Below are positions 10,468-25,334 of a stretch of DNA of 64,000 nucleotides, piece by piece. Origin of the DNA: Tubiluchus corallicola (taxonomy: Eukaryota > Animalia > Priapulida); the NCBI GenBank assembly GCA_030141605.1, contig JAQGDQ010001023.1, forward strand, positions 1 to 64,000. The letters are read 5' to 3'. The notes beneath the pieces were generated by a model. It saw nothing but the letters and a program-made list of their open reading frames with translations, was not told the origin of the DNA and did no database searches. The position numbers and the translations under genes are program-made. How positions within the stretch are numbered: position 1 is the first letter of the stretch; each line of letters starts with the position of its first letter.

Positions 10468-10691
10468 CTAAAAAAGCACCGCGACGATGAGAAGAAAAAT
10501 GGCGACTGAAACAATGGTTTGTCGATGAATCACGCCATCTACTTTTGGCAACACCTCAGGACATTCAATGTCTTTTAATTTGGCTCCTTGATAGGTAAAA
10601 TTATTCTCATTATTTGTGCAGTCGATGATTGACGACATCCACTTCTTATCCAATGCCCACTTAATGAAACAGTCGCAGACTAAATCGTTTT
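10468..10691 (-). CDS. Nested LRR gene A, coding exon 2 (LRRCT + hydrophobic tail)
   Basis: ctgttgcag|AA AAC. Joins as ELT-Q-NDLVCDCFIKW...VAIFLLIVAVLF*. Spliced CDS 810 nt = 269 aa. Confidence 0.9.
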
Positions 10692-11167
10692 CTGCAACAG
10701 ACGGACAACAAAGTAATAAAATTCAACAAGAGAATTGATGCAAAACATGTGAAAAGTGCTGGCTTAGTTATCTCACAAAATAAAGAGTTGTGTAATAAAC
10801 TATTTTTCGTTTTCTTTCTGTTTTTCTTTCTATTCTAAGAAAAAATGCAACAAATGAAGTCACTTCAGTGAGTCTAACAAATTGTGAAACAATTCGTAAT
10901 GGCTGAATAGATATAATTCATAAAAATAAGAAAAAAAGAAAAAGTTCACGCATTTCAATTGGCTGATAGTCTAATTAACTGTCGAATCTAAAACCTTAAT
11001 ACTTGTTAAACTTTTGACTGCAATAATATTTCTATCGATTTCTTATCCGTCATCTTAGTGTCATGTTAGTGTTTGTATTATTATTACGATAATACTATTG
11101 CATGCGGGGCTCTAACACCATTAATTCAGTGGCAAAGGGGGTGAATTTTGGGCTACCTTGACCCACT

Positions 11168-11250
11168 GGGGAGGCGGTGGCTTAGTGGCATAAGGCGTCT
11201 GTAGTGTAAACAAAAGATTCATAGTTCAAATCTAGGCTGAGTTCCAACTT
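11168..11250 (+). mobile_element. tRNA-like SINE head in gene A intron
   Basis: A box TGGCTTAGTGG and B box GTTCAAATC; no intact cloverleaf. Confidence 0.5.
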
Positions 11251-11361
11251 TTTCACATGTTTTCACGCTTTTACGATTTGTAATAGTACTATGAACTCTC
11301 CTCGTTCCCTGTAGTTTGTGGTCAAAGGCGTCTTTAATATATTGAAGAAATAGGGGTTAAA

Positions 11362-11785
11362 ATTTACAATTCCCCACATACAACAAATTAGTTCGTGAAT
11401 AGGATTAAGCTTAGAGCTATGAGCCAAGGCTGTTTGGGGGTTACGGCTAGGCTTAGGGTTATGGTTAGGGTATTATGCTGTATTTGTGTCACTCAGAGCA
11501 CGTTAACTGAGAGCCTGGAAGCAGTTTATAATTCTCCACAGAGTTTAAATACCCTGACCTTATCCTAGGCTTAACCGCAACCCTAGTCCTAACCCTAAAC
11601 TTAACTTTAACACTACCCCATCTCTAACCCAATTCTAATCCTATCCCTAATCCTAGCCCAAACCCTATTCCTACTCCTAATCCTAAGTCTAACCCCAACC
11701 CCAACCTTTTCCCTAATCTTAACCATAATTCTAATCAGCTTCCTGAAGTAATTTCATATGTAGGGATTAGTAAAGCTTTAGCCGA
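11362..11785. repeat. Dispersed element with degenerate telomere-like hexamers (TTAGGG / CCCTAA)
   Basis: Begins TTTACAATTCCCCACATA, ends GTAGGGATTAGTAAAGCTTTAGCC. Related shorter copy at 1233-1385. Confidence 0.6.
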
Positions 11786-12046
11786 GAGTTTAAAACATTT
11801 TTTAAAAAACTACTCAAACTATGAAAAAAATGATTTAATGTAAATAGAAATTAAAACTAAAATCGATAAGAATGTCAACTCATCGTTTTGATCGCTGACC
11901 AGCGATGCCTGACCATCGCAAACGTATTGTTTTTCGTTTTATTTTGTAAAAACAATATATCAATGACGTTAATTTCAATCAGCATATGTTATTTTTTGTG
12001 TCTAAAAGCCGTTTGTTGCTTGGCGATGGCGATATGTTTTACTTAC

Positions 12047-21300: not shown

Positions 21301-22774
21301 GATTTATTCGAGAAAGCAAACGCTTGTAATCTCTTGCAATATTGACTCTTAAAAACGAAAATCAAAATGACAATGAAAAAGAACAGATATATTCTAAAAA
21401 GGTATTCAAACACTGAAAGATCCAGAAGCGCCAACAATAGTAAAACGTCAAAGAATACAATAGAGAAGTGCGATTTTGTTCTGCACTCGCTTTTCAACAT
21501 CGATATCGAGCAATACTTGCAGCAATATATCTCCTTGGAACTCAAAAGTCAAGCTGTAAAGATTAAGGCGGTTAAAACACCTTCTCAGATTACAAACAGA
21601 AAAAATCACCCCAAAGAATACCTTAAAACCTTGCAAAAAACAACTTAGCAAACCAGAAGATTTACGTTTTTACCTTCAGATAAGAGTGGGTGGAATACTC
21701 CAATAACAGAAATGGTACTGTCTACAACAGACGAAATGAGACTTTGATGATACTATACGCAGAAGTCTTATAAGTAGCGCCTAACAAGTCATTGGTTTAC
21801 TGGTACTACAACTGGAACATTCCCATTCTGTCACAGTAATAGTTATTTGTACAGACGAGGCAAACAAACAAAAAAAAACAAAAAAAAAAAAACAGGTAAA
21901 AACAATAAAGCCATGAAAAAGAATGTTTAATTTTGCATGTTGCACACAGTATAAAAATTTTTCTACAAAAATTGACGCAAACAGCGCGTCTCTCACAGTA
22001 AACATTTACTAAACGTGGCAAAATCATTGCTTTTTAATTGTTTGATATGTTTTTTTTTCTTACACAAAGTTTTGCATCATACAAGAGTATAAGTTGGTTC
22101 ACAATTTTTGAAAGCCTCCTCTAACTTAGTTTGCTGCAAAAGCCTGGTGCGTGTGTCCAGACTGTCATACATTTCTGATGAAATAGAGCCAACAAACGTA
22201 GTCCAGCAATACAGGCAGTGGTCACGTGCAAAAATTCAGCCCTCTGATTGGGTACATCTCGGAGAGAGAGAGAGAGAGAGAGAGAGAGAGGGAGAGAGAG
22301 AGAGAGAGAGAGAGAGAGAGAGAGAAGTAGAAGCATACGCAGAAGTCTTGTAGGTAGCGCCTAACTTTTGAAGATGAGAACGCAATATTGTAAGGTGTCG
22401 GAATAATGATGCACTTTTAGAAAGAGAAAGCCCTAATCTACGTTTCCTACAGTGTAATCTGAATCAGAGTTTATGATTTTTATTAATATTAATAAAAGGT
22501 GATACAACAAGGAAGCCATTCAAAACGTTTTTATTTGCCAAGTAAAATTTTACAAGAATTAAACAAATAGAATTAAAAAACACTCTAAATAAAATTTTAA
22601 AATACTTTTAACTAATAATATTAAAAGGAAATTCTTAATAAAATTCAAAAGAATTAAAAAAGTAGAAACAAACGAATAAATTAAGAAATAAACAAGAAAC
22701 TAGTAGGATTTCGCTAGAATTGAAAAGGCAGAGTTTTGTCTAAGTGCGATGTCGTGTAGTGTTATCAGTTAGAG

Positions 22775-23007
22775 TTAGACTGATGTAAGAAACACAATAA
22801 CTAAAGCGAAAAGCAGAAGCTGGAGAGCTATGTTCTGATGAACGGAGAATTGACCCGCGGGAAGGAGGGTACCATCACAAAGCTGCTCGGCAGTAACAGA
22901 CATTTCCTGATGTGTGAACTTAGCTGGTGTTTCACAATCAAGAAGCGAAACCGCCCATGGCCTGTCTTTGGTCCACTTCAATGCACAGTTACAGTTTAAC
23001 TTGTTTT
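22775..23007 (-). CDS. Nested LRR gene D, coding exon 2 (LRRCT + GPI-type hydrophobic tail)
   Basis: ttttttcag|AA AAC. Joins as ELT-K-NKLNCNCALKW...LLLFALVIVFLTSV*. Spliced CDS 828 nt = 275 aa. Confidence 0.9.
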
Positions 23008-23261
23008 CTGAAAAAATAAATAATAAAATAAAAATTGTTCTATATAATAATATTTACTGTTACAAATACTTACTGGTTTTATGTAGTATCAGCATTGAAA
23101 AGTAACGAGGAGTTTCATTATTTACAGTCCAATGACACGCCCTTACAGGACTGGATCTGCCACTAGGCAAATTACGCAGTTTCTAGAGCCGGCCCCATTC
23201 ATATTTTGTTGAGGTCATAAACCAGGGATAACACCTCAAGTACTTTTTCCGAGGTAGTCCA

Positions 23262-23405
23262 GATTATTATTACACGCATCTTACTTCGACCAGTAAGCGG
23301 GTCAAGGAAACCAGTGGTACCATTTTATAATTCTTTGGTATTACATCGTCGGAATTGAACCCGCGACCTCCCAGAAGGAAATCGAGAACGCTATGCCATT
23401 AAGCA
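23262..23405 (-). mobile_element. tRNA-derived SINE (Meta-SINE-like core), in gene D intron
   Basis: B box GGTTCAATTCC followed by ATACCAAAGAATTATAAAATGGTAC. Same family as the copies at about 43100 and 49380. Confidence 0.65.
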
Positions 23406-24739
23406 AAGATAGTTTAGAAGCAGAAACACTGCAGTCCAACTGATTCAACTCCGCACAAGCAAATTTTTTCTTCGTTTACGTATTCAAATTTTGTATAAAA
23501 CTGGGATCATTCGGAATAGATTTTTCTATTGTGCCCCTAGAAAGAACGATTCTATCGTAGGATAGTTTCGAGGTATAAGAATCGCTCCATTTACAACACG
23601 GAGCAGATTCATCCTAGAATTTCGTTGTCTCAGTACATGCACACGGCTTTCAAATTTATATCCACAATTTACATGCAAAATTTGGAGAGAAAAGTCGTCC
23701 ATCAGAAACATTGTAACATTTTAGGAACAAGTCGCAATTTAATTGACTGAACACGCATGCGTGCGTGGTGGACAGAGTCTGGTCTTCTGCCATATGAGTT
23801 TTGTGAGCAAAACTGAACTTCAATAAGATTTTTAATTTCTATTTCTTATTTTTACTTATTTTTCTTTTAAACATAAGGGGAATCTTCTCCAGACCCCTGT
23901 AAAACTTTGGTTAACAAAGCTCTAATTATTAATCAAATTATGTCGCTCGTATCATATAAATGAGGCTAGGATTAAGTAATTAAATCTCTTATCAGCCGCA
24001 GGATTATACTTCTGAAAGTTCCTTCACCCCAGCTAGTAAGTCTGATCCTGGGAAAGATGGAATTTTGCCGCCCCTTATGTTGTTTACCTCCGTAATACGC
24101 AATCGACGATAATTGTACGTAAAACTTGAAAGTGATTGTGTCACTTAACATAAGTAACTAAACGAGATACTTCAATCCACGGGAGACTGTAACAACGTAA
24201 CAGGAGTAAAGAGCCGAGAGGGCGCTTTTGAAATTTTCTTGGAAACAAAAACCTGGAAGTTCTTGGGGATTTCTGCTTGGCTTCCGATGAAAGAACAGCT
24301 CTTCCCTTAGCTCATGTAATAGTAAAAAGAGCAGTAAATTTGAAATTTAAGCTTGTTACACACAGCAGAACTGTGACAGATTGTGTACAATTGAGACAGG
24401 TGGTTGACAATGACGCCACCCGATTTAAAGCCCCAGTTATTACCAATGGCCAAATGTTATTACAATAATTATACAAATATTTGACAAACAAGAGAATAGA
24501 GAAATAGGTCTTTAATTTAAAATTCGTTGACTGTCACTTTGTTTATATGCTAGGCAAACGTTTGGTGGTTCCCAGATTTTAGCAAAATAACCTGCACATG
24601 GAATATTAAATAAACGAGTCAGTGGCTAATTTAATGAGGGGGCGCCTGCTTTGAACACATGATTACTAATACCGTCCTGACCAGAGCCTTAATTTTGGAA
24701 AGGTTTGGTTTGTAAGATAAGTAAAGTAAGGTAACTTAC

Positions 24740-25334
24740 TCGTAAGTTCCAACACGGTATTCTTCGGGTCGTGGTCCTCTGCTAACACAGGTTCCTGTAT
24801 TGTTTCCAGTTTTATGTTAGAGCTAATTTCAATTTTTTGGATACCTGGAGTGTGCTTAAGGACCAATTTTACTTCCGTTAACTTGTCATTGCCTGTGATG
24901 ATCACTTCTTCCAGGGTCGCTTGCTCTTTGTCGATATATTCAGTTGTTATAAAATCGAGTTCAGGATTATCTTTTACTACCAACGCGTCTGTGATCAAAC
25001 CATGAATGACCATAATTCTCTTTAGCTTCTCACACCCCTCAAACTCAAGCCTGTTGACGAGCTTTTTTTCAAGAAAATTATCTGGGAGGTCCTCGTCGTC
25101 ATATTTTGCCGCAATTGTCAGAACTGTCATAAAATCTGGCAAAGCTTCTGAAATTGTTTGCAATAAATTCTTGTCGATCACATTGAAATCTCCACATCTA
25201 ATATTTGTGCACTGTTGATCGTACGAGCACTCAGGTCGTTTAACAAGCGTGTCCGCACAACCAGAAGAAAGAATATTTGGACGGGCATGAACAACAGCCA
25301 AGAAAGAAGTCAAGATAAGGAAATGTTCTTGCAT
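24740..25334 (-). CDS. Nested LRR gene D, coding exon 1 (signal peptide, Cys cap, LRRs)
   Basis: MQEHFLILTSFLAVVHA; C-x8-C-x5-C-x4-C cap; repeats such as LVVKDNPELDFI and VIITGNDKLTEV. Donor VLELT A|gtaagt (phase 1). Confidence 0.9.

What the first reader, a model, noticed from the sequence alone, without database searches (positions are those of the whole stretch)
10468..25334. Tandem array of four highly diverged, intact, putatively GPI-anchored LRR proteins (VLR-like architecture)
Seen: four minus-strand genes with an identical layout. A phase-1 intron sits at exactly the same codon (LEL[T/S]-x|x-N-xxx-C[D/N]C), so the last LRR and LRRCT form only after splicing. All four spliced CDSs are open (269, 282, 278, 275 aa) despite heavy divergence. 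Each has a signal peptide, Cys cap, about 6 repeats of [LIV]x[IV]xxNxxLxx[IV], an LRRCT (CxC..W...W....DC...C), small residues, a conserved H(Q/R) spacer and a terminal hydrophobic stretch with no cytoplasmic tail. Known: signal-LRRNT-LRR-LRRCT-GPI is the layout of agnathan VLRs and Nogo receptors, and the IxxNxxLxxI repeat style recalls glycoprotein-hormone-receptor ectodomains. Inference: a lineage-specific family of diversified cell-surface recognition proteins (immune, allorecognition, gamete or decoy co-receptors). I do not recognise it as a named family.
Basis: partly seen in the sequence, partly recalled or inferred. Interest (0 to 1): 0.88.

Follow-up and report, generated by a model that had tools for sequence, protein, structure and literature searches.

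The report
Nested array of variable LRR receptors
Four neighbouring genes of an unidentified animal, apparently tucked inside an intron of a larger leucine-rich-repeat gene, encode small leucine-rich-repeat proteins of an unnamed family that are likely lipid-anchored cell-surface detectors, and one of them differs between samples in a way that suggests an evolutionary arms race.

Summary
Four minus-strand two-exon genes with a phase-1 GT-AG intron at the same codon give open frames of 275, 278, 282 and 264/269 aa, 28-43% identical. A relative from a public contig carries the spliced junction. Models give an extracellular LRR solenoid, best matching FSH/TSH-receptor ectodomains. They are not VLRs: no LRRV consensus, Thr/Pro stalk or loose cassettes. 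GPI anchoring is likely but was not tested with a predictor. (1) The array lies on the same strand inside an 18.4-kb intron of a predicted larger LRR gene whose seven exons join in frame. (2) Gene 4 differs from contigs of other runs by 2.0% against 0.09% elsewhere; all 16 listed changed codons are amino-acid-changing and lean towards the concave face (only part of the table was shown). Best reading: germline-encoded, diversifying non-self detectors that signal through a partner. Function is inferred, and the organism and expression are unknown.

The parts
24740..25334 (-). g1 exon 1: signal peptide, Cys cap, five LRR turns
22775..23007 (-). g1 exon 2: end of last LRR, LRRCT, predicted GPI signal, stop
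20697..21300 (-). g2 exon 1
19496..19728 (-). g2 exon 2
   Evidence: three listed differences in run X5 are synonymous
15999..16608 (-). g3 exon 1
14499..14737 (-). g3 exon 2 (tail holds a Lys inside the hydrophobic stretch)
12047..12632 (-). g4 exon 1 (ATG at 12632 or 12617)
   Evidence: 153 of 264 residues identical to P0001 over the whole protein
10468..10691 (-). g4 exon 2
   Evidence: junction matches the continuous P0001 sequence
12121..12291 (-). variable patch in g4, LRR turns 3-5: 16 listed base differences in 13 codons against runs X1 and X3, all amino-acid-changing
61599..61975 (-). predicted host LRR gene, first coding exon (signal peptide, linker, Cys cap), phase-2 donor
45353..45430 (-). 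host exon 2 (78 nt, one LRR, phase 2-2)
44316..44399 (-). host exon 3 (84 nt)
32223..32294 (-). host exon 4 (72 nt)
27440..27511 (-). host exon 5 (72 nt), last before the array
   Evidence: Pfam LRR_8 E 0.00072, under the cut-off
8978..9049 (-). host exon 6 (72 nt), first after the array
   Evidence: LRR_8 E 0.0013, under the cut-off
1806..1877 (-). host exon 7 (72 nt); the gene runs on beyond the window
   Evidence: LRR_8 E 0.0074, under the cut-off

Best explanation
The four genes are intact tandem paralogues encoding small leucine-rich-repeat solenoids that are likely GPI-anchored on the cell surface and likely act as germline-encoded detectors of changing foreign ligands (most likely microbial), passing the signal to a separate membrane partner. 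Shown: two-exon structure, open frames, divergence, Cys caps, hydrophobic ends, and position between in-frame LRR exons of a larger gene. Predicted: LRR fold, secretion, GPI anchor. Inferred: ligand binding on the concave face, diversifying selection on g4, a CD14-like co-receptor role. Diversity would come from duplication and point mutation in the germline, not from somatic assembly. Nesting in the host LRR gene may be only the place where the family landed and expanded.
For: Open spliced frames at 28-43% identity. Relative P0001, from a 1,405-nt contig, reads straight through the junction. Models pLDDT 80.7 and 83.4; best structural matches FSHR Z 16.7 (rmsd 2.8, 181 aligned), TSHR 15.9, Slit2 D2 15.0, VLRA 13.2, NgR2 12.3. 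Pfam LRR_8 matches 7 of 15 aligned members. 9 of 11 relatives examined end in a hydrophobic stretch, and all 4 window proteins have 0-4 residues after it, so there is no signalling tail. g4 differs from X1 contigs at 45 of 2,209 nt against 8 of 9,172 nt in six other X1 pieces. All 16 listed changed g4 codons are non-synonymous (P about 0.024 for the 16 exon-1 bases). The 16 exon-1 differences are shared by X1 and X3, which come from two studies. 6 of 13 exon-1 changes fall on the 18 concave positions of 82 (P 0.032). Listed coding differences in g1 and g2 are 5 of 5 synonymous. Invertebrate LRR-only proteins that bind bacteria with the concave face or work with Tolls are reported (PMC4731796, PMC10178686; passages).
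Against: No ligand, expression or localisation data. No GPI or signal-peptide predictor was available; the shrimp LRR-only protein LvCD14L has a hydrophobic tail yet is described as secretory (PMC10178686, passages). The variant table showed 40 of 233 rows, so synonymous changes may be hidden; up to 4 differences of the X3 contig over 11594-12290 and the 8 of its contig over 12347-12716 were not listed. One of the 16 codons sits beside a 3-base gap and may be an alignment effect. At 5 of the 16 codons the X1 residue equals the relative's and at only 1 the window's does, so some differences could be errors or private changes of the window. g1, g2 and exon 2 of g3 are nearly invariant, so only one gene looks fast-evolving. 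The concave-face test is modest and its positions were assigned by eye. Diversifying selection also fits gamete or self/non-self recognition.
Confidence: 0.5

Rival explanations
1. Gamete-recognition or allorecognition surface proteins: same anatomy, but the changing ligand comes from the same species.
For: Non-synonymous clustering in g4; lineage-restricted family with no named relatives; predicted GPI anchor.
Against: X1 and X3, from two studies, share the same 16 exon-1 differences, and g1 and g2 barely vary, which is far from the many-allele pattern expected of allorecognition loci (recalled knowledge). The number of individuals seen is only two or three.
Confidence: 0.17
2. Decoy or co-receptors for an endogenous peptide or glycoprotein-hormone-type ligand, working with the host LRR gene, which would be an LGR-type receptor.
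For: Top fold matches are FSHR and TSHR ectodomains; the array sits in a gene built of 72-84-nt phase-2 single-LRR exons, a layout recalled from LGR genes.
Against: Identity to FSHR/TSHR is only 13-15% and other extracellular LRRs score within 2-3 Z units; by sequence profile LRRC15, TOL-1 and LINGO1 rank above FSHR. The host's 3' end is outside the window, so its class is unknown, and it shows no local BLAST match to the four proteins at E under 1. A conserved hormone would not be expected to drive the g4 changes.
Confidence: 0.13
3. Adhesion, matrix or guidance proteins, like Connectin, OMgp or Nogo receptors, with no immune role; g4 differences reflect relaxed constraint after a recent duplication.
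For: GPI-linked LRR-only proteins with such roles are listed in PMC2235866 (passages). X1 contigs over g4 have about twice the depth of their neighbours (324-347 against 160-184), a hint of an extra copy.
Against: Relaxed constraint would still leave about one base change in five synonymous; none of 19 listed is.
Confidence: 0.13
4. The nesting is only apparent: the LRR exons on either side belong to two genes, or the assembly is wrong here.
For: No transcript was seen; no laid contig spans 27440-25334 or 10468-9049 whole.
Against: All seven exons keep phase 2 and join without a stop. No first exon was seen between 10468 and 9049 and no last exon between 27440 and 25334. A strict exon scan gives 5 hits on the minus strand, 0 on the plus strand and at most 1 in 100 shuffles (pattern drawn up after seeing two of the exons).
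Confidence: 0.07

Closest known systems
Extracellular LRR 'LRR_Only' GPI class: CD14, OMgp, Nogo receptors, Nyctalopin, Drosophila Connectin (PMC2235866, passages)
   Same: Signal peptide, LRRNT, LRRs, LRRCT, short terminal hydrophobic stretch, no other domain; the class is known for lineage-specific expansion and fast divergence.
   Different: Only about six turns, FSHR-style repeats instead of the typical LxxLxLxxNxL, almost no stalk, four-copy tandem array, no one-to-one orthologue found.
Agnathan variable lymphocyte receptors and amphioxus VLR-like Bf66946 (PMC13428168, PMC4731796, passages)
   Same: Small LRR-only solenoid with Cys caps; variation on the concave face; VLRA matches at Z 13.2.
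   Different: No LRRV consensus, no Thr/Pro stalk, complete germline genes, no loose cassettes in the window.
Glycoprotein-hormone receptor (FSHR/TSHR) ectodomains
   Same: Best structural match (Z 15.4-16.7; Foldseek E 9.6e-4) and similar repeat style.
   Different: 13-15% identity; no hinge or seven-helix domain; repeats lie in one exon.
Invertebrate LRR-only pattern-recognition proteins: shrimp LvCD14L, amphioxus FrLRR (PMC10178686 passages; PMC10199209 abstract)
   Same: Extracellular LRR proteins without a signalling tail that bind microbes and act through partners; FrLRR has a predicted GPI site.
   Different: No sequence comparison was possible; LvCD14L is described as secretory and FrLRR carries a folate-receptor domain.
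Nested LRR genes: LRRTM in alpha-catenin, LRRN3 in IMMP2L, LRTM in CACNA2D (PMC3565204, passages)
   Same: Compact LRR genes sitting in an intron of a large gene.
   Different: Those are single genes, antisense to unrelated hosts; here a four-gene array is on the same strand and the host is itself an LRR gene.

Membership tests
Extracellular LRR_Only, GPI-linked class | LRR solenoid fold | tested here: met
   Pfam LRR_8 in 7 of 15 aligned members
Extracellular LRR_Only, GPI-linked class | [quoted passage not shown] | tested here: met
   conserved Cys in both caps of all four; model span 24-244 covered by LRR matches
Extracellular LRR_Only, GPI-linked class | N-terminal signal peptide | tested here: met
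   hydropathy only, 1.5-1.9; no SignalP available
Extracellular LRR_Only, GPI-linked class | GPI anchor | tested here: inconclusive
   terminal hydrophobic stretch with 0-4 residues after it in 4 of 4, and present in 9 of 11 relatives; no predictor or assay
Agnathan VLR | LRRNT-LRR-LRRCT, LRR-only layout | tested here: met
Agnathan VLR | 24-residue LRRV consensus (PMC4731796) | tested here: not met
   0 matches in 4 of 4 proteins
Agnathan VLR | Invariant Thr/Pro-rich stalk | tested here: not met
   only 30-34 residues follow the last cap Cys, tail included; 1-3 Thr/Pro in the first 12
Agnathan VLR | Incomplete germline gene with flanking LRR cassettes | tested here: not met
   four complete frames; only 4+4 family exons in the 64 kb; rest of the genome not held
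Agnathan VLR | Deaminase-driven somatic assembly and clonal expression | not testable with these tools
   needs cell-level DNA and RNA
Glycoprotein-hormone receptor / LGR | FSHR-type LRR ectodomain fold | tested here: met
   Z 16.7, rmsd 2.8, 181 aligned, 15% identity
Glycoprotein-hormone receptor / LGR | Hinge and seven-helix domain in the same protein | tested here: not met
   each frame stops right after one hydrophobic stretch
Receptor L-domain proteins | Pfam Recep_L_domain above cut-off and L-domain fold | tested here: inconclusive
   best E 0.0011, 19.6 bits against a cut-off of 21.8; the fold lists are headed by LRR proteins

The most novel reading that the evidence does not exclude
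A two-tier receptor locus: a large LRR receptor carries in its own intron a same-strand array of GPI-anchored variable detector subunits that pair with it; the array gains and loses copies, g4 is in an arms race, and because every intron is phase 1, exon 1 of one gene can splice to exon 2 of any downstream gene in frame (10 of 10 combinations open), adding combinatorial diversity.
Probability: 0.07. Interest if true: 0.8.

Novelty: new member of a known kind. Interest (0 to 1): 0.47.

Why it matters
It defines an unnamed animal family of small, probably GPI-anchored LRR proteins that standard Pfam annotation misses in this genome, with a testable sign of diversifying selection on the binding face of one member. 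If they are detectors of microbes, they add to the ways invertebrates diversify recognition without somatic rearrangement. The same-strand nesting of four polyadenylated genes in an LRR gene also offers a clean case for studying how a host transcript gets past nested splice and polyadenylation signals.

Tried and rejected
No whole genome is held, so no count of further copies. Word-indexed protein searches: none with the four-exon alignment, only P0001 and P0019 with the wider one, none for host exon 1 among longer proteins. The protein atlas gave no result for g2 exon 1 or P0001. No related locus in metagenome contigs. No RNA holder listed; the guessed RNA run X6 lay only on repeats. Earlier scan notes: nothing. 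Host exon 1 gave only chance PsaB-like hits, so the host's class is unknown. Fusion of host and nested exons is rejected: host exon 5 into any nested exon 2 stops within 6-10 codons, and nested exon 1 into host exon 6 stops at once. AG dinucleotides just upstream of three start codons were considered as leader-splice sites; for g4 the upstream residues match P0001's N-terminus, which argues against a splice there. AATAAA follows every stop within 8-252 nt, but 0.45 are expected per 400 nt by chance, so this is weak. Higher variability of concave columns across the family was not counted as evidence, as the comparison set holds structural residues. The tree has long branches and 2 of 12 strong forks (g1+g2; g4+P0001); it used a g4 version four residues short at the junction and left out the fragment P0026. 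P0063 and P0088, two of the 14 proteins fetched, look like unrelated intracellular LRRs and were dropped. L-domain reading: no L-domain protein among the 50 rows shown, which does not exclude it. Literature: 8 searches showed no description of this family or of a same-strand LRR array inside an LRR gene; two searches returned no paper at all. The library lacks most subscription journals and no supplements were read. The organism was not determined.
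Full report
Observation. The window is animal-type DNA (GC 0.359; spliceosomal introns, microsatellites); no genome is held and the organism was not determined. 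Splicing by coordinates gives phase-1 GT-AG introns of 1,732, 968, 1,261 and about 1,355 nt at the same codon and open frames of 275, 278, 282 and 264 or 269 aa, 27.9-43.2% identical. For g4 the script first took a nearer AG (10679); the acceptor at 10691 keeps the conserved Asn of the last repeat and matches the relative P0001, and was used. Each protein has an N-terminal hydrophobic stretch, at least three aligned Cys in the N-cap, four in the C-cap, and a terminal hydrophobic stretch with 0-4 residues after it.

Family. A profile of the four first exons, run against 1.84 billion representatives, gave 105 hits at E up to 0.001. Most are long multi-repeat proteins; I fetched 14 of the shorter ones, of which 12 look like family members. 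The 10 looked up are unnamed single-member clusters from Logan contigs of 940-1,667 nt. P0001 is 153 of 264 residues identical to g4 and reads through the junction in one called gene, which supports the splice (or an intronless orthologue). 9 of 11 relatives examined end in a hydrophobic stretch. Pfam finds no LRR family in the window's four first exons, only a sub-threshold L-domain hit, but LRR_8 in 7 of 15 aligned members. The wider profile matches many extracellular LRR proteins in the PDB, best LRRC15 (5e-18), TOL-1 and LINGO1, with VLRA at 7e-9 and FSHR at 9e-9; none stands out as an orthologue.

Fold. The g2 exon-1 model (pLDDT 80.7) matches TSHR best (E 9.6e-4). The full P0001 model (pLDDT 83.4) has six concave strands between two caps; among 48,161 chains the best are FSHR (Z 16.7, rmsd 2.8, 181 aligned), TSHR (15.9), Slit2 D2 (15.0), with VLRA 13.2 and NgR2 12.3; Foldseek puts 5T4 first (E 5.2e-4). 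So the fold is an extracellular LRR solenoid with FSHR-style repeats; identity is 13-17% and a shared fold shows no function.

Not a VLR. VLRs have 24-residue LRRV modules and a Thr/Pro stalk (PMC4731796, passages) and are assembled somatically from incomplete germline cassettes (PMC13428168, passages). Here there are 0 LRRV matches in 4 proteins and no stalk, the genes are complete, and the window holds only the 4+4 exons. The fit is to the LRR_Only, GPI-linked class with CD14, OMgp and Connectin, a class known for lineage-specific expansion and fast divergence (PMC2235866, passages).

Nesting. Reading the flanks showed a 72-nt LRR exon at 1877-1806 and a signal-peptide and Cys-cap exon at 61975-61599. 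A scan found five more single-repeat exons. All seven are phase 2 and join into 275 codons without a stop; the array lies in intron 5, 27439-9050, 18,390 nt. A strict scan gives 5 hits on the minus strand, 0 on the plus, and 0 in 98 and 1 in 2 of 100 local shuffles; the pattern was drawn up after two exons were seen. Three of the six small exons match LRR_8 below the cut-off. Host and nested exons cannot be fused in frame, so the four are separate units. Nested LRR genes are known, but antisense and in unrelated hosts (PMC3565204, passages); searches showed no same-strand LRR-in-LRR case. No transcript or spanning contig confirms the host joint.

Variation. Four runs were laid on 19000-27000 and 8300-15340; g3 exon 1 was not covered. 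Six X1 pieces of 500 nt or more outside g4 differ from the window at 8 of 9,172 nt; the three pieces over g4 at 45 of 2,209. Seven shorter X1 pieces, mostly on repeats, were left out of the 16 listed. Of 233 difference rows, 40 were shown; 19 lie in the g4 coding sequence as X1 differences and change 16 codons, all non-synonymously. The 16 in exon 1 are shared by X3, from another study. About 21% of sites there are synonymous, giving P 0.024 for 0 of 16; 6 of the 13 exon-1 codons sit on the 18 concave positions of 82 (P 0.032). In g1 and g2 the 5 listed coding differences are all synonymous. Against over-reading: hidden rows may hold synonymous changes; one codon abuts a 3-base gap; at 5 of 16 codons X1 agrees with P0001, at 1 the window does and at 10 P0001 has a third residue; X1 depth over g4 is doubled, so alleles and very recent copies cannot be told apart.

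Mechanism. Shown: gene structure, open frames, position. Predicted: secretion, LRR fold, GPI anchor. Inferred: binding on the concave face to a ligand that changes quickly, and signalling through a partner, since there is no cytoplasmic tail. Precedents are amphioxus Bf66946, which binds Gram-positive bacteria with its concave face, shrimp LvCD14L, which binds microbial patterns and Tolls (PMC10178686, passages), Hydra's split LRR and TIR proteins (PMC6043800, passages) and amphioxus FrLRR (PMC10199209, abstract). LvCD14L also warns that a hydrophobic tail need not mean a GPI anchor. I put non-self detection at 0.5, gamete or allorecognition at 0.17, hormone decoy or co-receptor at 0.13 and adhesion or matrix roles at 0.13.

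Verdict. A real, intact, unnamed family of small extracellular LRR proteins: a new member of a known kind, not a VLR. The same-strand nesting in an LRR gene and the g4 pattern raise it above an ordinary tandem array, but without organism, expression or ligand the function is an inference. Interest 0.47.

Noticed in passing
window 61975-1806, minus strand: Large predicted LRR gene with phase-2 single-repeat exons spanning the whole window; class unknown as its 3' end lies beyond position 1.
   Followed up: partly
window 10077-12787: X1 contigs over g4 have depth 324-347 against 160-184 in flanking contigs, a hint of a gene-sized duplication; contig depth is not a copy number, and X3 does not clearly show it.
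   Followed up: partly
window 12239-12495, 19646-19730, 22953-23035: Run X5, with the same species label as X1, matches coding parts at only about 82-87% (47 of 257, 11 of 85, 11 of 83 differences), suggesting a cryptic relative or further paralogues.
   Followed up: partly
window 56396-56514, plus strand: Single full-length 5S rRNA copy (Rfam 102.8 bits) in host intron 1.
   Followed up: no
window 27900-29800 plus strand; about 51400-52200 minus strand: Broken non-LTR retroelement with RVT_1 and zf-RVT remnants, and a second decayed piece of similar look.
   Followed up: partly
window 17389-18382, 26513-27069, about 5600-8215, 15353-15507: Minisatellites of 95, 55 and 38 bp and a TAC microsatellite around the array; the 95-bp array is broken near 17720-17760 by a low-complexity stretch that looks like a read error.
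   Followed up: no
P0029: Relative whose called protein starts with a copy of the C-terminal cap before a full repeat domain and lacks the hydrophobic tail; may be a tandem-domain form or a chimeric contig.
   Followed up: no
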